Shown here: positions 1,331-47,223 of the stretch, piece after piece
Layout of the letters: every line of letters starts with the position of its first letter
Numbering within the stretch: position 1 is the first letter of the stretch
Source: an uncultured Chitinophagaceae bacterium
Lineage (GTDB): Bacteria; Bacteroidota; Bacteroidia; Chitinophagales; Chitinophagaceae
Reading direction: 5' to 3'
NCBI GenBank assembly: GCA_937897585.1
Contig: CALCNY010000187.1
Location: 1-51,751, forward strand
DNA length: 51,751 nt
Notes under the pieces: model-generated
The model's input: only the letters and a program-made list of their open reading frames with translations
The model's database searches: none
What the model was told of the DNA's origin: nothing
Program-made: the position numbers and the translations under genes

Positions 1331-2536
1331 ATGAAAAAAATTCGTACCATTTTCTTGAGTGCATTTGCGATTTTACATTTAAATGCATTTTCTCAAAAAA
1401 CAAATATAAAAACTGAAATGAGAGCCGTATGGGTAGCTACTGTTGATAATATCGACTGGCCGGATACTGCAACAGTAGATGCTCAGTTGCATAAAGATGC
1501 TTTTCTCCGTTTGTTAGATACTCATTTTTGTAATGGCATCAATACCATCATCGTTCAAATTCGTCCTTCTTCTGATGCATTTTATCCTTCACCTTACGAA
1601 CCATGGAGCCAATGGCTAACAGGTATACAAGGACAAGCGCCACAGCCATTTTTTGATCCATTAGAGTTTATGATAACAGAAACGCATAAACGCGGAATGG
1701 AGTTTCATGCCTGGATTAATCCATTTAGAGCAGTTCAAAATATTGAGAAGTCTTCTATTGCTGAAAACCATGTTACAAAGCAACATCCTGATTGGTTCAT
1801 TCAATATGGCAATAAAATATTTTTTGATCCGGGAAATAAAGAAGCCAGACAATATGTTGTGGATGTGGTTAAAGATATTGTAAAACGATATGCTGTAGAT
1901 GCTATTCACATTGATGATTATTTTTACCCTTATCCATTACCAGGTGTAAAGTTTCATGATGAAAAAACTTACGGACTTTATGGCAGCACTATGAAGTTAG
2001 ATGATTGGAGACGAAGCAATGTCGATTCTGTGATTTCTAATTTGTATACTGAAATCAAAAAAATAAACAACAATTGTCAGTTTGGGGTGAGTCCATTTGG
2101 TGTATGGAGAAATTCGGATCGTGATCCGCGTGGCAGTAAAACACAAGCTGGTCCTACGGATTATGATTATTTATATGCCGATATTTTATTGTGGTTGAAA
2201 AAAGGTTGGGTAGATTATATTGCACCCCAACTATATTGGGAAATGACCAGTAAACATGTGCCTTTCGATGTGGTATTGGATTGGTGGAGCAAAAATACCA
2301 ATGGCAAAAAATGCTATATCGGATTGGGAGTTTATAGAGCAGGTTGCAACAAAGCCTGGAGCGATAAGAATTTATTACCTATTCAAATTGAAAAAATCAG
2401 AAAAACGCCCAATATTCAGGGTATGATGTTTTATAGCAGTCGCTCACTTGAAAAAAATCTGAATGGCTGGAGTGATAGTTTGAGATTGAATTATTTTAAA
2501 GAACCGGCGATGACGCCGAAGATGAATGCCCCCTAA
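1331..2536 (+). CDS. Glycoside hydrolase GHL10/YddW (DUF187) family, secreted
   Basis: EMRAVWVATV.NIDWP, QIRP..DAFYPS.YEPWS, EFHAWINPFR, IHIDDYFYP, DYIAPQLYW motifs; signal peptide. Confidence 0.85.
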   Translation: MKKIRTIFLSAFAILHLNAFSQKTNIKTEMRAVWVATVDNIDWPDTATVDAQLHKDAFLRLLDTHFCNGINTIIVQIRPSSDAFYPSPYEPWSQWLTGIQGQAPQPFFDPLEFMITETHKRGMEFHAWINPFRAVQNIEKSSIAENHVTKQHPDWFIQYGNKIFFDPGNKEARQYVVDVVKDIVKRYAVDAIHIDDYFYPYPLPGVKFHDEKTYGLYGSTMKLDDWRRSNVDSVISNLYTEIKKINNNCQFGVSPFGVWRNSDRDPRGSKTQAGPTDYDYLYADILLWLKKGWVDYIAPQLYWEMTSKHVPFDVVLDWWSKNTNGKKCYIGLGVYRAGCNKAWSDKNLLPIQIEKIRKTPNIQGMMFYSSRSLEKNLNGWSDSLRLNYFKEPAMTPKMNAP

Positions 2537-2562
2537 ATCCCCCAAAGGGGGACATTGATTAT
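2528..2562 (+). repeat. Palindromic repeat A copy overlapping the GHL10 stop codon
   Basis: GCCCCCTAAATCCCCCAAAGGGGGACATTGATTAT; the TAA at 2534-2536 is the gene stop. Confidence 0.9.
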
Positions 2563-2655
2563 GTAATATTTTGGATGTTATATTTAGTTGTAATTATTAA
2601 GCATTATGTAATATTGAATTGAATTCAACTTTATGTTGAGGTGCCCCAGCAAAGC

Positions 2656-2690
2656 ACAATCAAAGTCCCCCTTCGGGGGATTTAGGGGGC
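2656..2690 (-). repeat. Palindromic repeat A copy (inverted) overlapping the stop of the 2682-2984 gene
   Basis: Reverse complement reads GCCCCCTAAATCCCCCGAAGGGGGACTTTGATTGT. Confidence 0.9.
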
Positions 2691-4517: not shown

Positions 4518-5194
4518 TGGAAAACAACAAGGAGATTTCTCGGGAAAATAGTTCAACAATAAACTTCGGATTCCCTGCAAAGGCATTTGCGTATTTAAAT
4601 TCCTATCTTTTTCATCCTTTGTTTGTTCCTTTATATATCATCTTGTTTTTACTTTATGTGCATCCATCAGCTTTTACCGGATTTTCTGATGCGACAAAAG
4701 TTCGTGTAATCTTTATCGTTATTATCAATTTATTGTTCTTTCCCTTAATCAGTGTATTGTTATTAAAAGCGGTTGGTTTTATAGATTCGATTTATCTAAA
4801 GAACCAAAAAGACCGAATTATACCTTATATCGCTTCCGGTATTTTTTTCTTTTGGGCCTATCATGTTTTTAAAGAGCAAACTCAATATCCAGAGGTGTGG
4901 GTATCATACTTGCTAGGTTTGTTTTTGGCTTCATCAGCAGCATTGATTGCCAATATTTATTTCAAAGTAAGTATGCATGCTGTTGGAGTGGGAGGATGGA
5001 TTGGTTTTTTTTATCTTTTGTCAAACACACAAGATGTAATGATGACATGGCCGTTGGTAGCTGTGTTGTTAATTACGGGAATGGTGTGTACTTCAAGAAT
5101 GATTTTAAAAGCGCATGATGCTGTAGATATTTATGGTGGATTGGTTATTGGTGTGTTGACACAACTTGCGGGGTGGTATTTTAATGCCCCCTAA
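4517..5194 (+). CDS. Hypothetical membrane protein (PAP2-like C-terminus), translationally coupled to rpoN
   Basis: About 6-7 TM segments; SYLFHPLF, KVSMH, SR..LKAH motifs; TAATG overlap with the rpoN stop. Confidence 0.7.
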   Translation: MENNKEISRENSSTINFGFPAKAFAYLNSYLFHPLFVPLYIILFLLYVHPSAFTGFSDATKVRVIFIVIINLLFFPLISVLLLKAVGFIDSIYLKNQKDRIIPYIASGIFFFWAYHVFKEQTQYPEVWVSYLLGLFLASSAALIANIYFKVSMHAVGVGGWIGFFYLLSNTQDVMMTWPLVAVLLITGMVCTSRMILKAHDAVDIYGGLVIGVLTQLAGWYFNAP

Positions 5195-5600
5195 ATCTCC
5201 CAAAGGGGGGAATCTCCTCGTGAGAGGGGAGCAGTTAGCAGATTCGACTATCTCTGCGAAACCTCTACTTTCTTTAATTCTCCGCCGTAAAATATTTCGT
5301 GAATTCGTGATTATGAAAATGTAAAATGTAGAATATCCAATTTAAAATGTAAAAGTGGTATTTCGGAAACGAAATTGTTATTCTCTCATGAATTTAAAAA
5401 CCTCACCCCCAACCCCCCTTAATCCCCCGAAAGGGGAAGTCCAAGAATGAGAGGGGAGCAATGAGCAGTACCGACTTTGTGAATCTTCGTGCCTTAGCGC
5501 TATCGTGACAAAAAAATCGATTCCCTATCCACTAACAAGCAAAACCTCTGCTTTCTCTTATTCTCAGCGGTAAAATGATTCGTGAATTCGTGGTTAACCA
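5186..5600. repeat. Mosaic intergenic repeat cassette (repeat A plus about 1.5 copies of the composite element)
   Basis: A at 5186-5212. 5221-5310 and 5318-5465 match the reverse complement of 41188-41278 and 41261-41414; 5401-5520 matches the reverse complement of about 9487-9614. Confidence 0.85.
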
Positions 5601-7016: not shown

Positions 7017-9341
7017 ATGCCCCAATATATAGATGAACTAAATGAACCGCAGCGTACCGCGGTTTTGCACAAAGACGGACCCATAATGATCATTGCCGGA
7101 GCTGGCAGTGGAAAAACAAAAGTGATTACCACTCGAATCGCTCACCTGATGTCAACAGGTGTTGATGCCTTTAATATTTTGGCACTAACGTTTACGAATA
7201 AGGCTGCTGCAGAGATGAAAGAGCGTATCCAAAAAATACTTGGTAACAGCGAAGCTCGTAATTTGTATATCGGAACTTTTCATAGTGTATTCGCACGTAT
7301 TCTGAGAGGGGAAGCTACTAAAATCGGCTACCCTAGTGACTTCACCATTTATGACGGTGATGATGCCAAATCGGTTATCAAAACCATTGTGCGTGAAATG
7401 AATTTGGATGAAAAACATTACAAGCCCAATATCGTTTTAGGCAGAATTTCAAAAGCGAAAAATGCTTTGGTGGGTCCGGAAGAATATGCCAATGACTATC
7501 ATTTACAGCAAGAAGATTACAAAGCCAATCGCCCTGAAATTGGCGCTATTTATAAATCTTATGCAGCCCGTTGTTTTAAAAACGGCGCGATGGATTTCGA
7601 TGATTTACTATTTAAAATGTATGTACTGTTGAGTACATTTCCTGAATGTTTAAGCAAGTTTCAGCATAAGTTTAAATACATCATGATTGATGAGTATCAG
7701 GATACCAATGTGGTGCAATATGAAATTGTGAAACTACTTGGTGCCATGCACGAAAACGTGTGTGTTGTAGGTGATGATGCGCAAAGTATTTATAGCTTCC
7801 GTGGTGCTACAATTGAAAATATACTTCAGTTTCAAAAAGATTATGATGAAATAACTGTTGTAAAATTGGAACAGAATTATAGAAGTACAAAAAACATTCT
7901 AAATGTTGCCAATGAAGTCATCAGTAATAATAAAGGTCAGATTGAAAAGAAATTATTTACTGATAATGTTGAGGGTGAGAAAATAAAATTAATCCGCACC
8001 ATGACGGATAATGACGAGGGGAAAATCGTTGCAGATTCTATACAAGAACTAAAATTGCGCAATCATTATTTCAATCAGGATTTCGCGATTTTATATCGCA
8101 CCAATGCCCAGAGTCGTAGCTATGAGGAATCGTTGAGAAGAATGGGTATCGTATATAAAATTTATGGCGGCTTGAGTTTCTATCAACGTAAAGAGATCAA
8201 GGATTTTATTGCTTATCTCAGATTGATAGTGAATCCAAGAGATGAAGAAGCATTGAAAAGAGTCATCAATTACCCGGCGCGAGGCATTGGAAAAACTTCT
8301 ATTGATAGATTGGTGTTGTTGGCCAATGAGAAAGATTGCAGTGTTTGGGATATTCTCACCAATGCAGCTATGTTTGGTTTCAAGAGTGGCACTTTGGAAA
8401 GCATGGACAATTTTGTAACCATGTTAAAAATGTTTCAAAGTGAAATGGGTAAAAAAAATGCTTATGATTTAGCAGTGATTGTTGGAAAGAGTACAACCAT
8501 TGTAAAGGAATTATTCAATGATAAAACAACAGAAGGTCTTGCCAGATACGAGAACGTACAGGAGTTGTTAAACTCTATCAAAGAATTTACAGAAACGCCG
8601 ATGAATGAAGAAGATGGCGAAGTCGGCGATAAAGGACTCGGTACTTATCTTCAACAAATCTCATTACTAACGGATACAGACAACGATAAAGAAAATGCCG
8701 ATGCCGTGAAACTGATGACCATACATGCTGCTAAAGGTTTGGAATTTCCTGTAGTTTTTGTAGGTGGTTTGGAAGAAACGCTTTTTCCGGGTTCTATGAG
8801 TATTAATACGAGAGAAGAACTTGAAGAAGAAAGAAGATTATTTTATGTAGCCATTACTCGTGCGAAAGCGAAATTGTTTCTAACGTATGCGAATGCACGC
8901 TATCGTTTCGGACAATTACAACAAAATGAGCCCAGCAGATTCTTAGAAGAAATTGATGAGAAATATATAGACAAATCATTTGCAGGTGGGGTGGCAAGAA
9001 ACAACGCATCATCTTGGGCACAGTCAACTGCGCATGAAAGAATGAGGAGAGGATTTGGAAGTCCTGCTGAAAAACAAGCGCCTGTTAAAACTACCTTCAC
9101 TGTTACTCCGGTAAGAACGCAACCAAAAGAACATGTGCCATCAGAAAATTTTGTACCCAGTGATACCAGTTTGTTACAGCAAGGTCATAAAGTAGAGCAT
9201 CAGAAATTCGGATTTGGCGAGGTGAAAAAGCTTGAAGGTGCTAGCCATAATCCAATTGCAACCATATTATTTGATTTGAATGGTGAGAAAAAAATTATGT
9301 TGAATTACGCGAAGTTGAGGATTGTGGAGGAAGCCCCCTAA
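7017..9341 (+). CDS. pcrA: ATP-dependent DNA helicase PcrA/UvrD
   Basis: AGAGSGKT, ILALTFTNKAA, DEYQD, VGDDAQSIYSFRGA, LEQNYRS, TIHAAKGLEF, EERRLFYVAITRA; C-terminal Tudor-like HQKFGFG. Confidence 0.93.
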   Translation: MPQYIDELNEPQRTAVLHKDGPIMIIAGAGSGKTKVITTRIAHLMSTGVDAFNILALTFTNKAAAEMKERIQKILGNSEARNLYIGTFHSVFARILRGEATKIGYPSDFTIYDGDDAKSVIKTIVREMNLDEKHYKPNIVLGRISKAKNALVGPEEYANDYHLQQEDYKANRPEIGAIYKSYAARCFKNGAMDFDDLLFKMYVLLSTFPECLSKFQHKFKYIMIDEYQDTNVVQYEIVKLLGAMHENVCVVGDDAQSIYSFRGATIENILQFQKDYDEITVVKLEQNYRSTKNILNVANEVISNNKGQIEKKLFTDNVEGEKIKLIRTMTDNDEGKIVADSIQELKLRNHYFNQDFAILYRTNAQSRSYEESLRRMGIVYKIYGGLSFYQRKEIKDFIAYLRLIVNPRDEEALKRVINYPARGIGKTSIDRLVLLANEKDCSVWDILTNAAMFGFKSGTLESMDNFVTMLKMFQSEMGKKNAYDLAVIVGKSTTIVKELFNDKTTEGLARYENVQELLNSIKEFTETPMNEEDGEVGDKGLGTYLQQISLLTDTDNDKENADAVKLMTIHAAKGLEFPVVFVGGLEETLFPGSMSINTREELEEERRLFYVAITRAKAKLFLTYANARYRFGQLQQNEPSRFLEEIDEKYIDKSFAGGVARNNASSWAQSTAHERMRRGFGSPAEKQAPVKTTFTVTPVRTQPKEHVPSENFVPSDTSLLQQGHKVEHQKFGFGEVKKLEGASHNPIATILFDLNGEKKIMLNYAKLRIVEEAP

Positions 9342-9615
9342 ATCACCTAATGGAGTGGCCCCCTAAATCCCCCAAAGGGGGACTTTGATTGTGTTTTTTG
9401 CCCTTGTTGGTCTTATGACCAACAAAAAAAGATTAGCCACGAATTCACGAATGGGTTTCACGCAAGGTTCGCAAAGGAGCAAAGACGCGATTGTTTTTTG
9501 TCACAAGGACGCTAAGGCACAAAGATTCACAAAGTCGATAATTCTGATTGCTCCCCTCTAATTCTTGGACTTCCCCCTTTGGGGGATTAAGGGGGCTTGG
9601 GGTTTGGGGTGAGAC
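9333..9615. repeat. Mosaic intergenic repeat cassette downstream of pcrA
   Basis: Partial A (9333, provides the stop), full A (9358-9390), hairpin TTGTTGGTCTTATGACCAACAA (9404), GCCACGAATTCACGAAT (9436), CACGCAAGGTTCGCAAAG (9459), F module (9516-9559), inverted A nested in B (9560-9614). Confidence 0.85.
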
Positions 9616-10396: not shown

Positions 10397-11005
10397 ATGG
10401 GTATAAACCAAATCTGGCAACAATTCTCAGAAAACGTCATTCAAACCCGTTGGGAAGAATGGCTAAGTACGGCTTTACAGGTTGCGAGTGTTTGGTATGC
10501 CAAGAAGAATAACGTACTCGTATATCCGACAGGAATCATTGGCGTATTGTTGGCATCTTATATTTATTATTTCATTTCTAATCCGCCATTATACGCAGAT
10601 GCTATTTTGAATATTTATTATTTTTTCATGAGTATTTATGGTTGGTACAATTGGGTGCAGAAAAAAAATGAACAATTGGTTTTTCCAATCAGCTGGTGTG
10701 ATAAAAAAGAGTTGTCCATTGGCATAGGGATTTTTATTTTCTTTTGGGGATTGATTTATTACATGTTGATTAGCATTACGAATAGCAACACGCCAGTATT
10801 AGATTCTTTGGTTTCTTCAACTGCAGTAATTTCTATGTGGTGGATGGCCAAAAGAAAAATGGAAAACTGGATTGCATGGATTGTTTCAAACATTGTTGCC
10901 ATTCCATTGAATTTCTATAAGGGTTTCATGTTGTTTACGTTGATGTACATTTTGTTTTTAGGGTTGGCGGTTTCGGGTTATAAAGAGTGGAAGAAGAAAA
11001 TTTAA
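10397..11005 (+). CDS. pnuC: PnuC-family nicotinamide riboside/vitamin transporter
   Basis: Multi-TM; SIYGWYNW, PVLDS, MAKRKMENWIAWIV, GYKEW motifs; adjacent to a NadR-like kinase. Confidence 0.88.
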   Translation: MGINQIWQQFSENVIQTRWEEWLSTALQVASVWYAKKNNVLVYPTGIIGVLLASYIYYFISNPPLYADAILNIYYFFMSIYGWYNWVQKKNEQLVFPISWCDKKELSIGIGIFIFFWGLIYYMLISITNSNTPVLDSLVSSTAVISMWWMAKRKMENWIAWIVSNIVAIPLNFYKGFMLFTLMYILFLGLAVSGYKEWKKKI

Positions 11006-11028
11006 AAGTAAAAATTCAAAAGTAAAAA

Positions 11029-11640
11029 ATGAGTGAGTGTATTATCAAGGTAGTAGTCATTGGTCCTGAGTCGACAGGAAAGAGTACGCTTTGTGAAAAA
11101 TTAGCTGCTCATTACAAAACAATTTGGGTGCAGGAATATGCCAGAGAATATTTAATAAAAAACGGAAACGCATATACGCAACAAGATTTGCTCACCATCG
11201 CCAAAGGGCAGATTGAAAATGAAGAAAAAGCCATTCAACAACTATCCAACAATCAATTCCCAAACAATAAACAACGAACAACAAACCAAGGACAAACAAA
11301 CAACGCCCAACCCCAAACTCCAAACAAAAAACTATTAATTATCGACACCGACATGCACGTCATGAAAATCTGGAGTGAATTTGTATTTAATACCTGCAAT
11401 CATTTTATTTTGAATCAAATCGCCTCTAGAGAATATCATGCTTATTTACTTTGTGAACCTGATATTGATTGGGTAAAAGATGAACTGAGGGAATATCCTG
11501 ATTTGAAAACAAGAGAAATTTTATTTCATCATTATAAGGATTTACTGGTACATCAGCATTGTGCCTGGACAATCATTAACGGAGGTTATGACACAAGATT
11601 TCAAAAAGCGATAGCTTACATTGATAGCCTATTTCAATAA
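11029..11640 (+). CDS. NadR-type AAA/ribosylnicotinamide kinase-like ATP-binding protein
   Basis: KVVVIGPESTGKST, EYAREYL, IIDTD, DIDWVKDELRE; low-complexity N/Q insert. Confidence 0.85.
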   Translation: MSECIIKVVVIGPESTGKSTLCEKLAAHYKTIWVQEYAREYLIKNGNAYTQQDLLTIAKGQIENEEKAIQQLSNNQFPNNKQRTTNQGQTNNAQPQTPNKKLLIIDTDMHVMKIWSEFVFNTCNHFILNQIASREYHAYLLCEPDIDWVKDELREYPDLKTREILFHHYKDLLVHQHCAWTIINGGYDTRFQKAIAYIDSLFQ

Positions 11641-15277: not shown

Positions 15278-17437
15278 ATGAAAAAATTATTATTGTCACT
15301 GGTGTTGGTGGCAGTTATGCTTACTTCAAGAGCAGACGAAGGCATGTGGTTGCCTATGTTGCTTGGAAAACAAGTGTACAACGACATGGTGAAAAGAGGA
15401 TTGAAACTCACCAAAGAACAATTGTACTCCATCAATAAATCTTCTCTGAAAGATGCCATCATCATTTTTGGACGTGGTTGCACGGGCGAAATCGTTAGTG
15501 ATCAGGGCTTGATTTTCACTAATCATCATTGTGGTTATGATGCTATTGCCAAGGCGAGCAGTGTGGAGCATAATTATCTTAGAGATGGTTTTTATGCTTT
15601 CAATAAAGACCAGGAAATACAATCAGATTTAACAGTACAATTTTTAGATAGAATCGAAGATGTTACTGCTCAAGTGGAAGCCGGATTGAAAGGATTGACT
15701 TGGGAAGAAAGAACTAAGAAACTTCAGGAAGTATATAAAGGCATTACTGACAAGGTTGCCGATAAAGAGAATGGATTGTCGGGCAGAATTTATAGTATGT
15801 TCAAAGACAATCAGTACATCATGTATGTGTACAAAACGTATAAGGATATACGCCTGGTTGGTGCACCTCCTGAAAGTGTAGGAAAATTTGGAGGAGATAC
15901 CGACAATTGGGAATGGCCAAGACATACAGGAGATTTTTCTATTTTCAGAGTATATGCTGCTAAAGATGGCAAACCAACAGAATATAGTAAAGAGAACGTG
16001 CCTTTAAAACCCAAAAAATTCCTTCCTGTAAGTATCAAAGGCATTAAAGATGGCGACTACGCTATGATTTACGGATATCCAGGCGGCACCAATCGTTATG
16101 AAACGAGCTATGGCATCAAATTAAAAAATGATATTGAAAATCCATCATTAGTTGGATTGAGAGACATGCGTTTGAAATATATGCATGAGCAAATGATTAA
16201 AGATCCTGCTGTTAAATTGAAATTAGCTTCTGATTATGCAGGTATCGCCAACTACTGGAAATTCTTCGACGGAGAAACAAAGCAATTAAAAAAGTTCAAT
16301 ACATACGGACAAAAGCAGCAATTTGAAAATGAGTTTGCTACTTGGGCAAAAGGCAAACCTGAGTATGAAAATATCTTTACCGAGTACGAAAAAAATTATG
16401 CTGCTTGGACGCCATATAGCAAGCACCGTCAGTATTTGCGTGAAGGTATCTTAGGCTCGCCATTGTCTTCATTTGCATCATCTTTAATGGCATTGGAAGG
16501 CACTTTAGTGAAAGCTGGAGTTTCTGCTGAAGATGTAAAGAAAGCTATGGATGCAGCTGATGCTTCAAGAAAAAATTTCTTAGCTGCGGAAGACATGCCA
16601 AGTGATAAAAATATTTTGGCTGCAGTTGCGAAAGCGTTTTATACAGATATCGACAAATCACAACACCCATCGGGAATATTTGAAAAGATTGCTGGATTTG
16701 GTGATTTAAATGATGAAGCTACATTTAAAAAATGGGCTTTGAATGTTTTTGCAACAACAATGATTTTCAATGATGACAAATGGAATGCGTTTAAAGAAAA
16801 ACCAACAGCAATGGAACTTCAGGCTGACCCTGCATTCGATTTTGCAGCTTCATTTGTAAAAAATTACAACACTAAATATGCTCCATTATACACTGCATTT
16901 GCCAACAAAAACAATGAATTGGGAAGAAGTTATATGAAGGGAATTATGGAAAGAAACCCAACAGCAGCTGCTAAAATGTATCCTGATGCTAATTTCAGTA
17001 TGAGAGTAAGTTTCGGTAACATAAAAAGCTATAAGCCAAGAGATGGCATTTTCTGTGATTATGTGACCACTTCAAAAGGTATTTTAGAAAAATATGTCCC
17101 AGGTGATTATGAATTTGATTTGCCTGCCAAAGAAGTAGAATTATTAAAGAAAAGAGATTTCGGTCAGTACATTGATAAAAGCAAAAATGATTTGGTTGTT
17201 GCCTTCATCACTACAAATGACATTACCGGTGGAAACAGCGGAAGTCCAGTTATTGATGGCAATGGTAATTTAATTGGTTTGGCTTTTGATGGTAATTATG
17301 AGGCATTAAGTCATAAAATTGCTTTTGATAAAGATTTAAATCGCACTATTTGTGTGGATGCGAGATATGTATTGTGGTGTATAGATAAATTGGGTGGAGC
17401 GACGAATTTGATTGAGGAGATTAATCCGGTGAAATAG
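15278..17437 (+). CDS. S46 family dipeptidyl-peptidase (DPP7-like)
   Basis: DEGMW, GCT, TNHHC, NWEWPRHTGDF, ITGGNSGSPV; FDGN has Gly rather than the Arg of DPP11. Confidence 0.92.
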   Translation: MKKLLLSLVLVAVMLTSRADEGMWLPMLLGKQVYNDMVKRGLKLTKEQLYSINKSSLKDAIIIFGRGCTGEIVSDQGLIFTNHHCGYDAIAKASSVEHNYLRDGFYAFNKDQEIQSDLTVQFLDRIEDVTAQVEAGLKGLTWEERTKKLQEVYKGITDKVADKENGLSGRIYSMFKDNQYIMYVYKTYKDIRLVGAPPESVGKFGGDTDNWEWPRHTGDFSIFRVYAAKDGKPTEYSKENVPLKPKKFLPVSIKGIKDGDYAMIYGYPGGTNRYETSYGIKLKNDIENPSLVGLRDMRLKYMHEQMIKDPAVKLKLASDYAGIANYWKFFDGETKQLKKFNTYGQKQQFENEFATWAKGKPEYENIFTEYEKNYAAWTPYSKHRQYLREGILGSPLSSFASSLMALEGTLVKAGVSAEDVKKAMDAADASRKNFLAAEDMPSDKNILAAVAKAFYTDIDKSQHPSGIFEKIAGFGDLNDEATFKKWALNVFATTMIFNDDKWNAFKEKPTAMELQADPAFDFAASFVKNYNTKYAPLYTAFANKNNELGRSYMKGIMERNPTAAAKMYPDANFSMRVSFGNIKSYKPRDGIFCDYVTTSKGILEKYVPGDYEFDLPAKEVELLKKRDFGQYIDKSKNDLVVAFITTNDITGGNSGSPVIDGNGNLIGLAFDGNYEALSHKIAFDKDLNRTICVDARYVLWCIDKLGGATNLIEEINPVK

Positions 17438-23396: not shown

Positions 23397-23398
23397 GT

Positions 23399-26816: not shown

Positions 26817-26820
26817 ACAC

Positions 26821-38961: not shown

Positions 38962-40113
38962 ATGTTCAATGTAAAAAACCTAACCACGCTACTGTTATGT
39001 GTTTTCATGGCAGCATGCTCTCAAAAAAAAGATGGGCATTTCGTTGTAAACGGAAAAATTAAAAACATAAAAGATCAACATGTTTATCTTGAGCAATTGT
39101 ATTTTGGTGACAAATCGCCTGAAGTATTAGATACTGCAGAAATGAAAAATGGCAGCTTCTCATTGAAAGGAAATGGAACTGAAGAAACACTTTTTCGCGT
39201 TCGTTTTGAAAAAGAAACTAATAATTATTTAATCATCAACGATCAGGCTGAAATCAATATTGAAGCAGATGCTAATGACAAAACTATAAACAGTCAGAAA
39301 ATAAATTCACCTGCCAACAAAGGACTTAAAGATTTGATATTGGGAATGATTACCAGAGGCGAGGCCATGGATCATACAACAGCAGTTGCCGACTCGTTAC
39401 AAACTGCGGGTAATGACAGTTTGTTTACCATAGAAAAAAACAAACTCGCTTTGATGAGCGACGATTTTCAATCTTATCTAAAAAAATATATCGACAGCAG
39501 CAATGATCCGGTGTTGACCATCTTTGCAATTGGTAACGACAGAACTGCCGATGCTACAGCCATAAATGAAAGAGTCAAAAATTTAAAAAAGCGTTTTCCA
39601 ACTCATACCGGTATTGCAGATATGATTGTACAATACAACAAATATTTAGCGGAACAAAACAAACCACAAGCTCAGACTCAAACACCTGCTCGTCCTGAAG
39701 TAGGTGCAATGGCGCCAGACTTTACCTTAACAGATATAGATGGCAAACCATTTTCATTGAGCCAGTTGAAAGGACAATATGTGTTGGTGGATTTTTGGGC
39801 CAGTTGGTGTGGTCCTTGCAGAGGAGAGAATCCTAATGTGGTAGCAGCTTTCAATAAGTATAAAAATAAAAATTTTACAGTTCTTGGTGTTTCACTTGAT
39901 GAAGCAAAAGACAAATGGATGGAAGCCATCAAAAAAGATAATCTTACCTGGAAGCATGTGAGTGATTTGAAAGGATGGTATTCTTCCGTTGTTCCACTTT
40001 ATGGTTTTGATGGCATTCCTTATAATGTTTTAATCGATCCACAAGGAAAAATATTGGCTACAGAATTGAGAGAATCTGCGTTGGATGAGTTTTTGGGAAA
40101 GACGTTGAAGTAG
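38962..40113 (+). CDS. TlpA-family thiol-disulfide oxidoreductase lipoprotein (DUF4369-like + redoxin)
   Basis: Lipobox MAAC; APDFTL, VLVDFWASWCGPCR, GVSLD, IDPQGKI. Confidence 0.9.
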   Translation: MFNVKNLTTLLLCVFMAACSQKKDGHFVVNGKIKNIKDQHVYLEQLYFGDKSPEVLDTAEMKNGSFSLKGNGTEETLFRVRFEKETNNYLIINDQAEINIEADANDKTINSQKINSPANKGLKDLILGMITRGEAMDHTTAVADSLQTAGNDSLFTIEKNKLALMSDDFQSYLKKYIDSSNDPVLTIFAIGNDRTADATAINERVKNLKKRFPTHTGIADMIVQYNKYLAEQNKPQAQTQTPARPEVGAMAPDFTLTDIDGKPFSLSQLKGQYVLVDFWASWCGPCRGENPNVVAAFNKYKNKNFTVLGVSLDEAKDKWMEAIKKDNLTWKHVSDLKGWYSSVVPLYGFDGIPYNVLIDPQGKILATELRESALDEFLGKTLK

Positions 40114-40116
40114 GAC

Positions 40117-40172
40117 GGCCCCCTAAATCCCCCCAAGGTGGACTTTGCTGGGTTTGCCACGAATGCACGAAT
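40117..40172 (+). repeat. Repeat A plus module C
   Basis: GGCCCCCTAAATCCCCCCAAGGTGGACTTTG, 3 nt after the stop; GCCACGAATGCACGAAT at 40156. Confidence 0.85.
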
Positions 40173-40194
40173 TGATTTTGAATTTTAAATTATT

Positions 40195-40566
40195 TTAGTC
40201 TCGGTTCAAAAAACTTTGACTTATTTTAAAATGCTTTGAAATCACCTGCATATTTTTTTTCGAAACTCCTTTTTTTCCTGAGAGCATATCAGAAACCAAT
40301 CCTTCGCTGACATCTAATAGTCGAGCTAGATCTAATGATTTCATTTTATGTTCGATAAGTAAAGATTTTAAAATCTCCGGAAGAGAGAGTTTGTGAAACG
40401 GATGGTGGGCTTCATCGTATTTCTCAATCAGTAAGGTGAGTAATGCTATTTCATCAGAAATAGATTTTGATTTCTTTTTTAAGTTCAAAAATTCTTCTAA
40501 TTGCGTGCAATATTGTTGATACTGTGTTTTATTTCGAATGACAGTATATTTAAGAGATTGTACCAT
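40195..40566 (-). CDS. higA: HigA-type antitoxin (HTH XRE)
   Basis: I.N..QY, LLTLLIEKYDE, C-terminal HTH (DLARLLDVSEGLVSDMLSGKKG); downstream of higB. Confidence 0.85.
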   Translation of the reverse strand: MVQSLKYTVIRNKTQYQQYCTQLEEFLNLKKKSKSISDEIALLTLLIEKYDEAHHPFHKLSLPEILKSLLIEHKMKSLDLARLLDVSEGLVSDMLSGKKGVSKKNMQVISKHFKISQSFLNRD

Positions 40567-40571
40567 GATAA

Positions 40572-40904
40572 TTAATAAATGTTTATCAAATATTGTTTGC
40601 CTTGTTTACATATTCGTGTATAAGCAGCATGAGATCCTAACCAGCAAATAAATAAATGAACTTGTTTGTTACCAAAGTAGTATTTGGCAATCAACCTGTA
40701 TTTATTGCCGGCAATATTGAAAACCACTCGTGAGCTTTCATTGCCTAATAAATCAGCTGCTGAAAATGTCTTTTTTATATCACCGGGAATTTTCCAATCT
40801 GCAACTTTTACTTTATTCACCCACTCATTCAACGACACAAAACTATCAGGGTGTATAAATGTAAATTCATTAATTGATTTTATTTTGATGATATGCGTTT
40901 TCAA
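40572..40904 (-). CDS. higB: HigB-type toxin (RelE-like mRNase)
   Basis: W..P.DIKKTFSAAD..RVVFNIAGNKYRLI..WLGSHAAY; toxin-first order. Confidence 0.88.
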   Translation of the reverse strand: MKTHIIKIKSINEFTFIHPDSFVSLNEWVNKVKVADWKIPGDIKKTFSAADLLGNESSRVVFNIAGNKYRLIAKYYFGNKQVHLFICWLGSHAAYTRICKQGKQYLINIY

Positions 40905-41026: not shown

Positions 41027-41414
41027 CACGCAAAGTTCGCAAAGGGGCGAGGGCGCAAAGATTATATTTTCTAAATTGTTCCATAGGAACATCTCGTTTT
41101 TAGCCCGATATGATAGTTATGTAGTTTCGTTCCTTCGGAACTTTTGTTTTGCCATTGTTGGTCTTGTGACCAACAAAAAAAAGGTAAGCCACGAATTCAC
41201 GAATTTATTTTACCGCGGAGAAGAGAGAAAGTAGAGGTTGCGCGGAGCTATTCGATACTGCTGATTGCTCCCCTATCATTCGTGGATTTCCCCCTTTGGG
41301 GGATTAAGGGGGCTTGGGGTTGGGGGTGAGGTTTTCCCATTCAGAAGAAAATAACCATTTCATTTCCAAAATCCCACTTCTACATTTTACAATGGATATT
41401 TTACATTTTACATT
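41027..41414. repeat. Mosaic intergenic repeat cassette between higBA and the XRE gene
   Basis: Modules G (41027), GTTCC..GGAAC hairpin pair (41077, 41129), E (41155), C (41188), H (41208), B with nested A (41265-41332), D (41370-41414). Confidence 0.85.
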
Positions 41415-41423
41415 CCCTCTCTC

Positions 41424-41648
41424 TCACTCCTCAAATAACTCCTTCATTTCCACTTGCAATGTTTTGCAGATTCTGAGTAATGATATTATTGATGTGTTGA
41501 TTTCTCCTCTTTCAATACGGCCCAACTGACGGTATTCGATTTCGGCTTCGTTTGCCAGACTTTCCATGGTAAACCCTTTTTCTTTTCTCTTCCTGCGTAG
41601 CGTTGCGCCTACTTTTTTAAGGTATTTGTCGTAGTCTTTTGAGTTCAT
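41424..41648 (-). CDS. XRE-family HTH transcriptional regulator
   Basis: G..LR.KR..KGFTMESLA..AEIEYRQLGRIERGEINTSI. Confidence 0.88.
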   Translation of the reverse strand: MNSKDYDKYLKKVGATLRRKRKEKGFTMESLANEAEIEYRQLGRIERGEINTSIISLLRICKTLQVEMKELFEE

Positions 41649-41712: not shown

Positions 41713-42092
41713 TTTTCCATTTAAATTAAAATAATGGACCTATTAAGGGTTTATCGTTTTTATTAAATGTAAAATCTAAAATATCCTCCCCCAAAAACCT
41801 CGGGGCAAATGATGTAGTGAATCGGATTTTGAAACCCCAAAAATATCTGTGTTTTAAAGTACAATTCAAAATGTTTTAACTATAACAAGTTTTAGATATT
41901 TTGAATAAAAAGAATAATCAGTTGGGTAAAAAGGTTTTTTGAATATCCAATGTAAAATATCCAATGTAAAATGTAAAAGTGGGATTTAGTACCACAATTG
42001 AAATTTAAAACTTAACATCAAACAAATAACGCCAAACGCCAAACAAGCGCAGCGGCCAAACACCAAACAATAAACCATAAACATTTTCTTTT

Positions 42093-45000
42093 ATGAAAAA
42101 GCTCCTTTTTGTTCTACTCATCCTATCAGTAGTAACTTCTTACGCTCAAATTCCTTCTTACGTTCCTACAAATGGCCTAGTAGGCTACTGGCCGTTTAAT
42201 GGAAATGCAAATGATGAAAGTGGTAATGGAAATAATGGAACGGTAAATGGAGCAATGTTGACTACAGATAGGTTTGGAAATCTGGGGAAGGCCTATAGCT
42301 TTGATGGAATTAGTAATGATATTACAATTGCCAATTCAAGTAGTTTATCTAGTATGACTAGTATCACTATTTCTGCTTGGTTTAATGTTAGTCAATGGGA
42401 CATTGTGAATAGCCAAGGCTGGTTTCCGATATTATCAAAAACAAATTCTTCTTCATATGGGAAATATCGAATAGGAGCTTTCACAAGCGTTAGTGGTGCT
42501 CCTTCATTTTATGGAAATTTAGGAACAAATGCAACTGGCATTAGTCAAAATAATCTTTATTCTTTGAATCAATGGTATCAAATTGTGATGACAATATCAA
42601 ACGGTAATTCTAGTATTTATTTGAATGGCACGGAAATTTTCAATGGTGCAACAACTGCAACAGGATGGAATACAACTGATAATTTGCCACTATTAATAGG
42701 TAAAGATATTCCTGGGATTGTCGATTATGCAAACGGAAAGATTGATGATATTGCTATTTGGGATCGTGCACTATCCACACAAGAAGTTTCTAATTTATAC
42801 TCATCTTCCGCTCCCTGCATCGCAAACATCACCACCCCCGATACCACTATCTGCAAAGGCTCATCTGTTACCTTAAATGCAGCAGCAGTAAGCCCTGCAT
42901 CCGTAACAGATATCAACGGCAATACTTACCCTTCAGTAAACATCGGCTCACAAACCTGGATGCAGAAAAACTTAAACGTAAGCAAATATAAAAACGGAGA
43001 TATCATACCTCAAGTAACTGACTCTGCTACTTGGCGCAATCTTACAACTGGTGCATGGTGCTGGTATAATAACGATAGTGCCAACTATGCTTCCAAAGGT
43101 AAATTGTACAACTGGTATGCTGTAAATGATGCAAGAGGTATCGCTCCTGATGGCTGGCATGTTCCAACTGATGGCGAGTGGAATAAGATGATTAAATTTT
43201 TAGATCCGCTGGCAGATACAGTTTGCGGTGGTTGTGTACAAAGTTCATTGGCCGGTGGTGCACTCAAACAAACCGGTACCACTAACTGGGCGTCACCTAA
43301 TGGCGGTGCCACTAATTCAAGCAATTTCAACGCTATCTCTGCGGGTATTCGTGATGGTAGATTCTTAAATCCAACTACCAACGCATACTGGTGGAGTGCT
43401 ACTACCAATCCGGCGAACCTAACACCTGCTGCCTGGTCGCATACTGTTGGCTCAAGTGATGGCAACGAGGCAAGAATCAGTAATGTAAAATTCAACGGTT
43501 ATTCTGTAAGAACCGTTCGCAATACGCCTACTTATCTTTGGTCAACCGGTGCTACTACTCAAAGTATTTCTGTTAGTCCAACAAGAACTACCACTTACTA
43601 TGTAACCGTTAGCGATGGTGTTAATTCATGCACAGATAGTGTTACCGTTACAGTTTCGGGTATTGTTAACAGTGATACTACTATTTGTAGAGGCGCAACT
43701 GTTACATTAGGCGCGGCTACTGTAAACGTACCAAGCTCGGATGTAAGTGGTAATGCTTATTCAAGTGTTAATATCGGTTCACAAACATGGAGCAGTAAAA
43801 ACTTAACTGCTTCAAAATATAAAAATGGAGATGTAATTCCTCAAGTAACGGATTCGGCTACATGGCGTAATCTTACTACCGGTGCATGGTGCTGGTTTAA
43901 TAACGACAGTGCTACTTATTCAGCAGCCGGTAAATTATACAACTGGTATGCAGTAAATGATGCAAGAGGTATCGCTCCTGATGGATGGCATGTTCCTACA
44001 GATGCAGAGTGGAATAAGATGATAAAATATTTAGATCCTTTGGCTGATACTGTTTGCGGCGGTTGTGCACAAAGCACATTGGCAGGCGGTGCGTTAAAAC
44101 AAACAGGCACAACAAATTGGTTAACTCCAAATGGAGGCGCTACCAACTCAAGTGGTTTCAATGCTATTGCTTCGGGTATCCGTGATGGTTCGTTCTTAAA
44201 TGCAAGAACAAATGCATATTGGTGGAGTGCTACTACTAATACGGCAAATACAACACCTGCTGCTTGGTCTCATGCTATTGGTTCAAGCGATGCCAATGAA
44301 GCCAGAATTAGTAATGTAAAATCAAATGGTTATTCTGTAAGGTTCGTAAGAAATGCTACAACCTATTTATGGTCAACAGGAGCCACTACACAAACCATTT
44401 CAGTTTCACCAACTGTTACCACTACTTACTATTGCACCATCAACAATGGTTATTCAACTTGTACCGATAGTGTGAAAGTATACGTAAACACTGCAGTACC
44501 ATCAGCACCTACAGCCATCACTGGAGCAACAGATATTTGTTCATATTTTACAAGTCCAACAGTTGCTACAAGTAGTGCGGTAACTTACACAGCGGCCGTT
44601 GCAACGAACACGCTTTCTTATAACTGGACAGTACCTGCAGGAGTTACTCTTGTAAGTGGTCAAGGAACAAATAGCATCACAGTAACTTTTGCTTCTACTT
44701 TTGTTTCAGGAGCCATTGCAGTTAATTCGGTTAACGCTTGTGGTAGCAGTACCGCAGCCAGATCATTAACCGTTTACAAAAGAGTAGCTGCTATTCCGGG
44801 TGTAATTCAAAAAGAATTTACACCAACATCTATAGTAGCCGTTACCAACGTAACCGGTCTGGTTTCAGAAACTTACAGAATTAAAAAAGTATTATACGCT
44901 ACTTCTTATAACTGGTCGATGAATCAGGGAACAAATGCTACTATTTCGCACATCAATCCTTCCGGCGTCAATGATACGGCAGTAATTGTAACCTTTGCGA

Positions 45001-45998
45001 ATTGCTTCTCAAGAGATACGCTTTCTGTAAAAGCGGTTACGCCATGCTCGGTGAGTACTTCCAGAACAGCAATACTGTATGCTTATTCAACACCGGCTGC
45101 TGTTGCAGGCATTACAACAGTTGGCGGTAATTTCGCCACTTGTATCGGTGTCAACAAAACGTTTACGGCTGTACGCGGAACACCTACAACTTTACAGGCG
45201 CCTATTGCTTCTTTCCGCTGGACAATACCTGTAAATACAACAATTGTTTCGGCAACTTCGGATAGTGCAAGCATTACCGTTAGTTTCAATGCAGGTTATA
45301 CCGGTGGTAGCATCAGTGCCAAAGGGGTTAGCTCTTGTGGTACTATCGGCACAACAGCTTCAACGGCTATTTTACAATTCTTGCCTCCGGGTGTCTTGAG
45401 TATAGCCTCAAGCACAGGCTCTTACAATGCCTGTATCGGCAATAGTGTAACGTATTCTGCTTTGGTGAGCGCGCCTACAACCAGTCAGGTGGCTGCCAGT
45501 GTGTTCCGTTGGACCAAGCCTAACAACACTACAATTATCAGCGCCGTTGCTGATAGTTCAACAATCACCTTACAATTCAACACCGGATATATAGGAGGAA
45601 CATTGTCTGTAAAAGGACAAACTTCTTGTGGAACTTTGGGAACAGCTAAAAACCAAACGCTAACGCATAGTGGCTGTGCAGCAGGTACGAAGATGAGTGT
45701 GCCGGTTACAACAACAGCCAATTCATTTGAGGTGAGTTTGTATCCAAATCCGTCGGCAGGAGAATTTAAGCTTCTCGTTAATCTCGTTGGTGGAAAAACA
45801 CCAACGATGGCAACACCAACGAGGGAAGCAACGAAAGCCATTGTAAAAGTCATTGATATTCAAGGTAGACTTATGAAATCATTCGAATGCAACGCCAACC
45901 AAGTAACAGCTTTGGGTAACGAATTAAAACCAGGTGTGTACATGGTGGAAGTGAGAATGGGTAATGAGGTGAAGACGGTGAGGGCAGTGAGGTTTTAA
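42093..45998 (+). CDS. T9SS-secreted multidomain protein: LamG-like + 2x FISUMP (Fib_succ_major) + Ig/PKD-like repeats + type A CTD
   Basis: GLVGYWPFNGNANDESGNGNNG..IDDIAIWDRALS (LamG); IGSQTW..NL, GKLYNWYAV, PDGWHVPTD.EW, YWWS, GYSVR x2 (FISUMP); YPNPS..G.Y.V C-terminus (CTD). Confidence 0.88.
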   Translation: MKKLLFVLLILSVVTSYAQIPSYVPTNGLVGYWPFNGNANDESGNGNNGTVNGAMLTTDRFGNLGKAYSFDGISNDITIANSSSLSSMTSITISAWFNVSQWDIVNSQGWFPILSKTNSSSYGKYRIGAFTSVSGAPSFYGNLGTNATGISQNNLYSLNQWYQIVMTISNGNSSIYLNGTEIFNGATTATGWNTTDNLPLLIGKDIPGIVDYANGKIDDIAIWDRALSTQEVSNLYSSSAPCIANITTPDTTICKGSSVTLNAAAVSPASVTDINGNTYPSVNIGSQTWMQKNLNVSKYKNGDIIPQVTDSATWRNLTTGAWCWYNNDSANYASKGKLYNWYAVNDARGIAPDGWHVPTDGEWNKMIKFLDPLADTVCGGCVQSSLAGGALKQTGTTNWASPNGGATNSSNFNAISAGIRDGRFLNPTTNAYWWSATTNPANLTPAAWSHTVGSSDGNEARISNVKFNGYSVRTVRNTPTYLWSTGATTQSISVSPTRTTTYYVTVSDGVNSCTDSVTVTVSGIVNSDTTICRGATVTLGAATVNVPSSDVSGNAYSSVNIGSQTWSSKNLTASKYKNGDVIPQVTDSATWRNLTTGAWCWFNNDSATYSAAGKLYNWYAVNDARGIAPDGWHVPTDAEWNKMIKYLDPLADTVCGGCAQSTLAGGALKQTGTTNWLTPNGGATNSSGFNAIASGIRDGSFLNARTNAYWWSATTNTANTTPAAWSHAIGSSDANEARISNVKSNGYSVRFVRNATTYLWSTGATTQTISVSPTVTTTYYCTINNGYSTCTDSVKVYVNTAVPSAPTAITGATDICSYFTSPTVATSSAVTYTAAVATNTLSYNWTVPAGVTLVSGQGTNSITVTFASTFVSGAIAVNSVNACGSSTAARSLTVYKRVAAIPGVIQKEFTPTSIVAVTNVTGLVSETYRIKKVLYATSYNWSMNQGTNATISHINPSGVNDTAVIVTFANCFSRDTLSVKAVTPCSVSTSRTAILYAYSTPAAVAGITTVGGNFATCIGVNKTFTAVRGTPTTLQAPIASFRWTIPVNTTIVSATSDSASITVSFNAGYTGGSISAKGVSSCGTIGTTASTAILQFLPPGVLSIASSTGSYNACIGNSVTYSALVSAPTTSQVAASVFRWTKPNNTTIISAVADSSTITLQFNTGYIGGTLSVKGQTSCGTLGTAKNQTLTHSGCAAGTKMSVPVTTTANSFEVSLYPNPSAGEFKLLVNLVGGKTPTMATPTREATKAIVKVIDIQGRLMKSFECNANQVTALGNELKPGVYMVEVRMGNEVKTVRAVRF

Positions 45999-46001
45999 AA
46001 A

Positions 46002-46488
46002 GCCCCCTCAATCCCCCGAAGGGGGAAGTTCATCGGTGCGAAAGAGATAATCTAGCAATACATAATTAAAGTCCCCCTTCGGGGGATTTAGGGGGCAATA
46101 TCTTCGGCAAGAAGGGCGGTTTTTGCTTTTGTTGGTCTTATGACCAACAAAAAAAGAAGGCACAAAGATTCACAAAGTCGATAATTCTGATTGCTCCCCT
46201 CTCATTCAGGAGAGGGGTTGGGGGTGAGGTTTTTCAATCCATGAGAGAATAATCATTTCATATCCTAAATCCCACTTTTACCCCGAGGTATCGGGGCAGG
46301 CTATTCATTATTTAATATTTTACATTCTACATTTCCTCCCCAATTGGGGGTGAGGTTTTTTCAATTCATGAGAGAATAATCATTTCATTTCCTAAATCCC
46401 ACTTTTACCCCGAGGTATCGGGGCAGGCTATTCATCATTTAATATTTTACATTCTACATTTCCTCCCCCTTCGGGGGATCTAGGGGGC
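46002..46488. repeat. Mosaic cassette: inverted A pair, modules E/F/B, 126-bp tandem duplication, terminal A
   Basis: A (46002-46029), inverted A (46061-46096), E (46129), F/B (46159-46230), duplication 46218-46343/46344-46469, and an inverted A providing the birA stop. Confidence 0.88.
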
Positions 46489-47223
46489 CACCACCCATTC
46501 CACCTCCCCAAAATTAAACTTCCTTTCCACCTCATCTTGGGTAATTAATTGTCCTTCGGAGCTTACTTCAACTATAGCAGTATCAAAAAGTTCATCATTT
46601 TGTTTCATTTTCACCGTTTGACCACTTAAATACAACGCCTCATTATAGGCTTTCATGATTTCTTCGGTGTTCAACTCTTGTAAAGAGTCGATATAATCTA
46701 CAATATGTTTTCTGAGATGTCTGGCTAATAATTCAGGATTATAAGTCTTTTCGGTAATTTGTTTTAAAGAGATTGGAATCCGTTGCATTTCCGGAAATCC
46801 AATTTGGTTGACATTGATGCCAATTCCAATCACCGCCCAATTCCATGACTTACCTCGAAAATTGTTTTCTATCAATATGCCGCCTGCCTTTCTGTCACGT
46901 ATAAAGAGATCGTTGGGCCATTTGATGTTAACTTTTTCTGAAACAATTCTTTCCAAAAATTGCTTACAGGCCAGCGAAATACAGGCATTGAAAAGAAATG
47001 GTTGTGTTGAAAATGCCGCCGGAGGTACGATAATCACACTCATCAGAATATTTTCACCCGGTTGGCTGTGCCAGCTTTTGAAACGCTGCCCTTTACCCGC
47101 AGTTTGTCCATTGGCAAAAAATCCCATACCGTGACTCGCCAATCCTGCATGAATTTGTGCCATGGCATAGTTGTTGGTACTATCAACAATATTAAGACAT
47201 TGAAAAACTAAGTTTGATTCCAT
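46480..47223 (-). CDS. birA: Biotin--[acetyl-CoA-carboxylase] ligase (no HTH)
   Basis: DSTNNYA, QTAGKGQR, IKWPND, KAGGILIEN, GIGINVNQ; ATG at 47223 preferred over the long ORF start. Confidence 0.92.
   Translation of the reverse strand: MESNLVFQCLNIVDSTNNYAMAQIHAGLASHGMGFFANGQTAGKGQRFKSWHSQPGENILMSVIIVPPAAFSTQPFLFNACISLACKQFLERIVSEKVNIKWPNDLFIRDRKAGGILIENNFRGKSWNWAVIGIGINVNQIGFPEMQRIPISLKQITEKTYNPELLARHLRKHIVDYIDSLQELNTEEIMKAYNEALYLSGQTVKMKQNDELFDTAIVEVSSEGQLITQDEVERKFNFGEVEWVVAP

What the first reader, a model, noticed from the sequence alone, without database searches (positions are those of the whole stretch)
2501..46538. Local G-rich/C-poor synonymous codon shift in gene tails abutting the repeat cassettes
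Seen in sequence: in a genome favouring A/T-ending codons, the last 10-17 codons before repeat cassettes switch to G-ending ones. Examples: recO ACG ATG AAG GTG TTG CAG GAG GTG TTG GGG; birA GAG GTG GAA AGG AAG..GGG GAG GTG GAA TGG GTG GTG (no sense-strand C in 46488-46538); tatC (no sense-strand C in 23399-23447); T9SS gene GAG GTG AAG ACG GTG AGG GCA GTG AGG; pcrA GCG AAG TTG AGG ATT GTG GAG; GHL10 CCG GCG ATG ACG CCG AAG; also tlpA, rpiB, XRE, the amidohydrolase, S46 and pnuC. Genes without repeats (rpoN, gatB, susC, susD, PDZ, prfA) keep A/T tails. Gene heads just after cassettes are C-rich (42093-42170, 19155-19200), the same bias on the other strand. Exceptions are the 2682 gene and higA. 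Inference: strand-asymmetric local mutagenesis or conversion tracts centred on the repeat sites (for example repeated nicking or cutting plus error-prone repair). This could be the footprint of an undescribed repeat-targeted system.
Basis: partly seen in the sequence, partly recalled or inferred. Interest (0 to 1): 0.8.

Follow-up and report, generated by a model that had tools for sequence, protein, structure and literature searches.

The report
Repeat cassettes recode neighbouring gene ends
In this Bacteroidota genome the 60-75 bases just outside small repeat cassettes are strongly G-rich and C-poor on the strand running into the repeat, on both sides and for all repeat families tested, likely because repeat-directed nicking and short-patch repair keeps rewriting them, a process I could not find described.

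Summary
Confirmed, and far beyond chance. Genome-wide, 294 tails with an outward-facing repeat arm within 30 nt have median silent G3 0.60, against 0.20 in 304 repeat-free wide-gap ends (p about 1e-54). The tract peaks 15-30 nt from the arm and is gone by about 75 nt. It mirrors as C-richness in gene heads and mid-gene after in-frame arms, and is weaker in non-coding flanks. It is similar for hairpin and tandem families and for single or paired arms, with no clear dependence on expression or conservation. Many families flank a cognate small gene (four-helix bundle, GxxExxY, DUF559, Y1 HUH). Orthologues lacking the cassette have near-normal tails. The footprint recurs across Bacteroidota but not at 25 E. 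coli REP tails. Uniform error-prone repair is rejected: shared cassettes diverge less and retain G, while cassettes present in one lineage show fast gain of G. Best reading: arm-directed nicking with strand-biased short-patch repair (0.5); main rival: selection against arm-directed cutting or insertion. No mechanism step is shown. This scan noted similar mirror skews on other DNA (e1-7606683, e1-7746148, e1-5166659).

The parts
2470..2520 (+). G-rich tail tract, GHL10 gene; the arm supplies its last codons and stop
2526..2690 (.). cassette: two inverted H1 hairpin arms (CCCCT-AAT-CCCCC-AAGGGGG type)
5125..5183 (+). moderate tail tract, PAP2-like gene
5184..5600 (.). composite cassette (H1, H2, AATGTA, CCACGAAT-type arms)
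9280..9330 (+). G-rich tail tract, pcrA/uvrD
9331..9613 (.). composite cassette
10945..11028 (+). pnuC G-rich tail and AAAAGTA-type arm
11249..11370 (+). in-frame CAAACAC-type outgoing arm inside the NadR-like gene, followed by C-ending codons (mid-gene mirror tract)
17375..17437 (+). G-rich tail tract, S46 peptidase (terminator-like hairpin first, CCACGAA arm about 69 nt on)
19069..19200 (+). inverted GGTTCAA 9-mer arms and the C-rich stretch leading into the adenosine deaminase gene
22548..22820 (-). rpiB G-rich tail (22770-22820) and cassette (22548-22769)
23229..23450 (-). cassette with H1 and H3 arms (23229-23394) and tatC G-rich tail (23399-23450)
26530..26870 (.). convergent pair: amidohydrolase tail (+), cassette 26585-26815, recO tail (-, 26821-26870)
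29920..29985 (+).
40055..40175 (+). tlpA G-rich tail and left arms (H1, CCACGAAT)
40195..40904 (-). higA/higB pair on the inner side of the arms; no tract
41146..41475 (-). right arms (41146-41415) and XRE G-rich tail (41424-41475)
42020..42170 (+). CAAACAC-type outgoing arm and C-rich head of the T9SS-sorted gene
45940..46545 (.). convergent pair: T9SS gene tail (+, 45940-45998), cassette 46002-46487, birA tail (-, 46488-46545)

Best explanation
Each oriented repeat arm is flanked on its outer side by a 60-75 nt tract in which G is gained and kept and C is lost on the strand running 5'->3' into the arm, and the likely cause is repeated nicking at the arm by the cassettes' cognate nucleases followed by a predicted short-patch resynthesis that resolves mismatches in favour of one strand. 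Shown: the tract, its polarity and length, its dependence on the arm, fast G gain where only one lineage has the cassette, G retention where both have it, and cognate genes enclosed by inverted arms. Inferred: a nick on the outgoing strand, Pol I-type 5'->3' resynthesis outward on the incoming strand as template, erasure of changes carried on the outgoing strand (fewer G>A, G>T, T>C, A>C) and fixation or creation of the opposite ones (A>G, T>G, C>T). Which strand is cut, which polymerase acts and what the four-helix-bundle protein does are not known.
For: Strand-polar and independent of gene sense: heads after an outgoing arm gain C and lose G against matched heads (129 against 1830; codons 1-5 four-fold C 0.25 against 0.13, p=1e-5; A/G-family G 0.06 against 0.19, p=2e-6). 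Six mid-gene flanks after in-frame hairpin arms have C at 21 of 26 C/T-family sites. 194 aperiodic non-coding flanks show the same gradient (G 0.24 to 0.17 against 0.14). Similar size for single and paired arms, for most families (AAAAGTA weakest), across expression-proxy quartiles and on both replichore skews; no link to protein conservation (rho 0.09, p=0.25, n=163). Discordant orthologues: G in the cassette genome where the other has non-G 31/71 and 92/210, against 137/1344 and 272/1890; A/T swaps 36/67 against 353/1077 (p=0.0008); an additive G-writing model fits these better than selection (lnL -860 against -867). All eight relevant rates move in the direction expected if one strand wins (the C rows rest on few sites). 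Cognate genes with intact-looking catalytic motifs sit between inverted arms. E. coli TnpA-REP nicks single-stranded DNA at C|T on either side of a REP (PMC3333891, passages).
Against: For 1614 sites at shared cassettes a selection-type model (G +2.05, C -1.4) fits best: AIC 4707 against 4729 for strand resolution and 4733-4736 for patchy mutagenesis. A/T exchange is lower there (26/112; p=0.04 against repeat-free tails). The non-coding tract is much weaker than the silent-site tract. Four-helix-bundle proteins have no known nuclease activity, yet their families carry the tract. E. coli REPs, which have a cognate nickase, show little (25 tails). The two mid-gene incoming flanks are weak (four-fold G 2/12). 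No nick, polymerase or mutation event was observed. Both species pairs share G000, so the fits are not independent.
Confidence: 0.5

Rival explanations
1. Selection for resistance to the cassette: cognate nucleases cut or insert new arms at C-containing, G-poor sites within about 75 nt outside an arm, so host flanks that lose C and gain G suffer fewer breaks or gene-damaging insertions.
For: Best fit at shared cassettes and lower divergence there. The outermost arm family differs at 20 of 76 and 50 of 126 orthologous sites, and 131 of 504 arms overlap the stop codon (loose motif set), so junctions are re-attacked. C loss is strongest before A. TnpA-REP needs C|T (PMC3333891).
Against: The gradient is present in non-coding flanks and does not depend on gene conservation. 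Onset is faster than this selection strength predicts (observed G 0.36-0.57 against 0.25-0.43 predicted) and A/T swaps are raised in discordant pairs. It gives no clear reason for G to beat A and T in all contexts.
Confidence: 0.22
2. RNA-level selection: the outgoing strand is made C-rich and G-poor as a Rho-loading (rut-like) stretch, or the incoming strand G-rich for an RNA:DNA hybrid, to stop transcripts that leave the cassette.
For: The tract length and the order C > U/A > G on the outgoing strand match what I recall of Rho sites (recalled, no call). Repeat-free convergent tails show a slight G rise (four-fold G 0.16-0.18 against 0.11-0.15), and convergent cassette tails are a little stronger than co-directional ones (0.46 against 0.38).
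Against: The tract is also strong at co-directional tails, where no convergent read-through exists. C-rich heads and mid-gene tracts would put rut-like RNA into the sense message. There is little trend with the expression proxy. No specific pairing between the two flanks (duplex -15.6 against -15.8 permuted, 143 cassettes). G before purine is not preferred over G before T.
Confidence: 0.12
3. Passive repeat-associated mutagenesis: arms stall forks or expose single-stranded DNA, and a Y-family polymerase or deamination skews the flank, with no dedicated nicking.
For: One IMS/DinB-family gene is present. Repeats raise local substitution through error-prone polymerases (PMC3114760, abstract). Raised divergence in discordant pairs.
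Against: Polarity follows the arm, not the replichore. Single low-structure 7-9-mer arms suffice. Loss of G is slowed and uniform added mutagenesis is rejected. E. coli REP hairpins show little.
Confidence: 0.1
4. Trivial causes: operon-terminal position, cassettes choosing G-rich sites, degenerate repeat creeping into the gene, or sequencing error near hairpins.
For: Repeat-free wide-gap tails are marginally higher than operon-internal ones (0.20 against 0.17, p=0.003). The assembly contains adapter sequence.
Against: Terminator-bearing repeat-free tails are flat. Orthologues lacking the cassette are near baseline (8 genes with the cassette in G000 and G287 only: 0.52, 0.57, 0.23). Flanks do not resemble their own family's unit. 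The same Gs are shared by separately assembled species and amino acids are conserved.
Confidence: 0.03

Closest known systems
REP/BIME elements with RAYT (TnpA-REP) in REPtrons (PMC2817692 abstract; PMC3333891 and PMC6006769 passages)
   Same: Oriented intergenic repeats in many copies, composite arrays, a cognate gene between inverted arms; two Y1 HUH genes here have their own repeat families, which carry the tract.
   Different: Most families here flank non-HUH genes (four-helix bundle, GxxExxY, DUF559) and many are 7-9-mer tandem arrays. No flank recoding appears in the parts of these papers that I read. 25 E. coli REP tails show little shift.
GRINS (PMC8256042, abstract and passages)
   Same: Intense local GC skew, strongest at third positions, shifting amino acids towards Gly, Val and Trp; mechanism unknown.
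   Different: GRINS are >500 bp duplicated regions inside genes with both GC and TA skew. These tracts are 60-75 nt, single-copy, anchored on a repeat arm, with almost no TA skew (A 0.32, T 0.30).
Repeat-associated mutagenesis (PMC3114760 and PMC3681665, abstracts)
   Same: Substitution pattern changed next to repeats.
   Different: Those are raised rates over hundreds of bases to kilobases, with no strand polarity in the abstracts. Here the tract is short, polar and G-directed, and total divergence at shared sites is lower.
ORF-bearing 23S rRNA intervening sequences and the DGR Avd fold (PF05635; PDB 2GSC, 2RLD; PMC10053308 passages)
   Same: Four genes of this family lie between inverted tandem arms.
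   Different: They lie between protein genes, not in rRNA. No reverse transcriptase was found with PF00078 in this 96%-complete genome, and the spectrum is not adenine-specific.

Membership tests
REPtron (RAYT/REP) | Y1 HUH gene flanked by inverted cognate repeats | tested here: met
   Two genes, G000 C191 and C80. C80 has the Y---NP motif of class 2; C191 has Y---Q of class 1 (motifs per PMC6006769). Applies to 2 of about 14 families.
REPtron (RAYT/REP) | cognate gene is an HUH transposase for the families seen in the window | tested here: not met
   H1/H2 arms flank DUF559, CCACGAAT and CGCAGAG flank GxxExxY, tandem arrays flank four-helix-bundle genes.
REPtron (RAYT/REP) | repeat-dependent cleavage of single-stranded DNA | not testable with these tools
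   needs biochemistry
GRINS | duplicated region >500 bp with >80% identity | tested here: not met
   tracts are 60-75 nt and are not among the repeats
GRINS | absolute GC skew >0.15 | tested here: met
   flanks G 0.29, C 0.09
GRINS | absolute TA skew >0.15 | tested here: not met
   flanks A 0.32, T 0.30
Diversity-generating retroelement | reverse transcriptase in the genome | tested here: not met
   PF00078 not found in G000, 96% complete
Diversity-generating retroelement | adenine-specific changes | tested here: not met
   T>G and loss of C are as marked as A>G
Diversity-generating retroelement | Avd-like protein | tested here: met
   PF05635 x4; likeness to Avd per PMC10053308
Repeat-induced error-prone mutagenesis | raised total substitution rate beside the repeat | tested here: inconclusive
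   lower at shared cassettes, higher than control tails at discordant ones
23S rRNA intervening sequence | located within 23S rRNA | tested here: not met
   all four lie between or fused to protein genes

The most novel reading that the evidence does not exclude
Bacteroidota carry a family-agnostic, repeat-guided DNA editing pathway: unrelated small proteins (Avd-like four-helix bundle, two PD-(D/E)XK families, HUH) each read their own oriented repeat and hand a nick to one shared host step that rewrites about 60 nt of neighbouring DNA in one strand direction, recoding hundreds of gene ends, stop codons and some enzyme interiors.
Probability: 0.35. Interest if true: 0.92.

Novelty: categorically new. 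Interest (0 to 1): 0.8.

Why it matters
At least one gene end in seven in this genome (297 to 363 of 2058 closed ends, by two definitions) is being recoded by a position-specific, strand-specific force strong enough to shift amino acids (Gly, Glu, Val, Arg and Met up; Ile, Asn and Gln down) and stop codons (TAG 34% against 11%). It gives a measurable read-out for four widespread gene families of largely unknown function and their repeats, a short tractable analogue of the unexplained GRINS skew, and a confounder for codon-usage and dS analyses in Bacteroidota. If the repair model holds, it is a natural programmable short-patch editor.

Tried and rejected
Flank-to-flank pairing or template switching: no excess over permuted pairs (143 cassettes). 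Flank resembling its own repeat unit: no diagonal excess. Cassette imported with a donor's tail: amino-acid and C/T-family differences are not raised in discordant tails. DGR-type mechanism: no RT found, not adenine-specific. An automated list of in-frame arms from weak k-mer hits (28 incoming, 24 outgoing) was mostly chance matches and gave little signal (incoming four-fold G 15/150); the mid-gene claim rests on the 8 hairpin-motif flanks, two of which include repeat-derived codons, plus the window's NadR-like gene. The 12-parameter fit did not converge and is not used. One search aligned the wrong end of recO and is not used. Run contigs gave only 40 listed differences each, from strains of unknown relation: four changes fell in the amidohydrolase tract and three in the recO tract, too few to judge. 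No RNA holder was listed. The cargo-gene script found few genes because many arms were not in its oriented k-mer set. A LeuRS with/without-insert contrast across the genus and a G015 comparison were left open. Plasmid four-helix-bundle hits outside Bacteroidota were not analysed; the one fetched lay among transposases. Literature searches that found no description of the tract. I recall a preprint on targeted mutagenesis of repeat-flanked genes (recalled names TAGT, TROLL, DOLL); searches did not find it, so it may overlap and I could not check. No supplements were read.


Full report
Setting. The window is contig C187 of a 2.8 Mb, 364-contig genome, 96% complete. Close homologues of one of its genes are labelled Ferruginibacter or Chitinophagaceae. 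Intergenic gaps hold composite cassettes of about 14 repeat families: hairpins (H1 CCCCT-AAT-CCCCC-AAGGGGG, H2/H3, CCTAGC, TTCTCAGC), 8-mer pairs (CCACGAAT, CGCAGAG) and degenerate 7-9-mer arrays. Family labels are mine. Genes were called with my own script, so start codons are less certain than stops.

Observation. All quoted tails check out. Genome-wide the shift is large: 258 tails with a listed repeat within 30 nt have four-fold G3 near 0.5 in the last ten codons against 0.12, fading by codon 20, while 426 operon-internal tails are flat. Most strong tails with no listed repeat turned out to abut further degenerate families. Per gene, median G3 is 0.60 (n=294) against 0.20 (n=304) and 0.17 (n=583), p about 1e-54; 136 repeat-free tails with terminator-like hairpins are flat.

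Anatomy. Arms have a fixed orientation to the flank: H1 79 against 1, TATCCAGCC 39 against 4, AACCTTTTG 38 against 0. Anchored on the arm and pooled over three genomes, the tract peaks at 15-30 nt (four-fold G 0.61, C 0.04) and reaches baseline by 75-90 nt. It is the same for 118 single-arm and 340 paired gaps and similar for most families, with AAAAGTA (n=8) the weakest; the two Y1-linked families carry it too (n=14 and 6). All three codon positions, amino acids and stop codons move. On the far side the mirror holds: 129 heads gain C and lose G against 1830 controls, with C gain weaker than G gain in tails. In-frame arms in LeuRS, MetRS, a YggS-like gene (name from my reading of the sequence) and a NadR-like gene are followed by C-ending runs in mid-gene (21 of 26 C/T-family sites in six flanks); the two incoming mid-gene flanks are weak. 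194 aperiodic non-coding flanks show a weaker gradient of the same sign and length. Expression proxy, protein conservation, replichore skew and flank pairing explain little or nothing.

Cognate genes. The genome has four PF05635 four-helix-bundle genes, three PF13366 GxxExxY matches (two partial, at contig ends), two DUF559 domains inserted in frame in MetRS and LeuRS, and two Y1 HUH genes (one under the Pfam cut-off). Each lies beside or between arms of a particular family. For several families (GCTGGATA, AATGTA, TTTGATAAT) I found no cognate gene. No reverse transcriptase was found; one DinB-family gene is present.

Orthologues. I used 0.75 of 1.9 Mb of G287 (524 orthologues, 91% identity) and 1.60 of 2.8 Mb of G034 (972, 82%). 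Where both species have the cassette (38 and 88 genes), both have the tract, silent divergence is low (tail/body 0.54 and 0.68 against 0.76 and 0.89), G loss is 3-5 fold slower, G gain about twofold faster and C gain slower. Where only one has it (16 and 56 genes by the strict rule), that one has the tract, 44% of sites that are non-G in the other are G, and A/T swaps are raised. The outermost family differs at 20 of 76 and 50 of 126 shared sites and arms often replace the last codons (loose motifs, some false hits), so junctions are re-used.

Model fits. At shared sites: selection-type bias AIC 4707, strand-biased resolution 4729, patchy intense mutagenesis 4733-4736, uniform added mutagenesis 4842-4910. 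At discordant sites added G-writing fits better than selection by about 7 log-likelihood units. Taken together, uniform error-prone repair is out, while selection and a directional DNA process are close to tied. I prefer the DNA process because of the non-coding gradient, the independence from gene sense, expression and conservation, and the fast onset. The lower divergence at shared sites is the main result against it. Both pairs include G000 and assume stationarity.

Breadth. G034 and G287 show the same profile; G036 had no H1 match. Around 78 four-helix-bundle loci, mostly Bacteroidota, 70 of 90 adjacent tails have more G and 72 of 90 less C than their gene bodies, against 23 and 31 of 51 control tails from the same loci. 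The three tails from Planctomycetes- and Paceibacterota-labelled records showed no G rise. Of 80 GxxExxY metagenome loci, 48 had a usable upstream tail: 33 of 43 low-GC ones had more G, and 2 of 5 high-GC ones; these loci are related and some are near duplicates. In 250 kb of E. coli K-12, 25 REP-adjacent tails show little shift (A/G-family G 0.42-0.48 against 0.43; four-fold G 0.47 against 0.37-0.40).

Mechanism. Three of the four cognate classes belong to nuclease or nickase families, and TnpA-REP cuts single-stranded DNA at C|T on both sides of a REP (PMC3333891, passages). A nick on the outgoing strand at the arm, followed by short 5'->3' resynthesis outward, gives the right side, length and mirror symmetry and the observed directions of change. 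That the patch length suits Pol I is recalled knowledge. Every step from nick to fixation is inferred.

Comparison and novelty. The cassettes work like REPtrons, but most fail membership on the cognate gene. The tracts resemble GRINS in skew but fail on length, duplication and TA skew (PMC8256042, passages). Ten searches of the held library found no description; subscription papers and a recalled preprint could not be checked, and no supplements were read. Papers seen: PMC6006769, PMC10053308, PMC3333891 and PMC8256042 as passages; PMC2817692, PMC3114760 and PMC3681665 as abstracts. Earlier notes of this scan report similar mirror skews in other genomes, some with opposite polarity; these are leads, not support.

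Verdict. A real, strong, arm-anchored and strand-polar recoding of host DNA across Bacteroidota, with an unresolved but directly testable cause. Interest 0.8.

Noticed in passing
G000 C125:9174-12380 (L172) and C196:1888-4539 (L171): DUF559 domains between inverted hairpin arms are inserted in frame in LeuRS and MetRS. About 17 genus relatives match the LeuRS insert over most of its length; G034 keeps only a short arm at the same LeuRS site.
   Followed up: partly
window 11249-11322: In-frame CAAACAC-type arm inside the NadR-like gene; G287 has H1 arms at the same site instead.
   Followed up: partly
G000 C78:5922-6824 (L179): A four-helix-bundle gene runs without a stop through its downstream arm into the next gene (301 aa frame); G034 C13 has a similar 309 aa frame.
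   Followed up: no
window 40195-40904: higB/higA pair lies on the inner side of cassette arms, like cargo.
   Followed up: partly
window 42909-44039: 831-nt internal duplication in the T9SS-sorted gene (two Fib_succ_major domains).
   Followed up: no
window 46230-46477: 121-nt direct repeat at 95% identity inside a cassette, suggesting recent unit amplification.
   Followed up: no
window 20921-20970: G-rich, C-free silent sites in a tail with no visible arm in the gap; possibly a lost cassette.
   Followed up: no
window 17741-17978: A contig of run X1 replaces 236 cassette bases with 48 others, so cassette content varies between close strains.
   Followed up: no
window 36040-36270: Three imperfect 79-80 nt units with CCACCGTTTAAA-type hairpins; another repeat family, not classified.
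   Followed up: no
G000 genome-wide: Sequencing-adapter words occur about 60 times in the assembly.
   Followed up: no
L184, L220, L259: Records labelled Streptomyces griseus and Agrobacterium carry Bacteroidota-like four-helix-bundle loci; the labels look doubtful.
   Followed up: no
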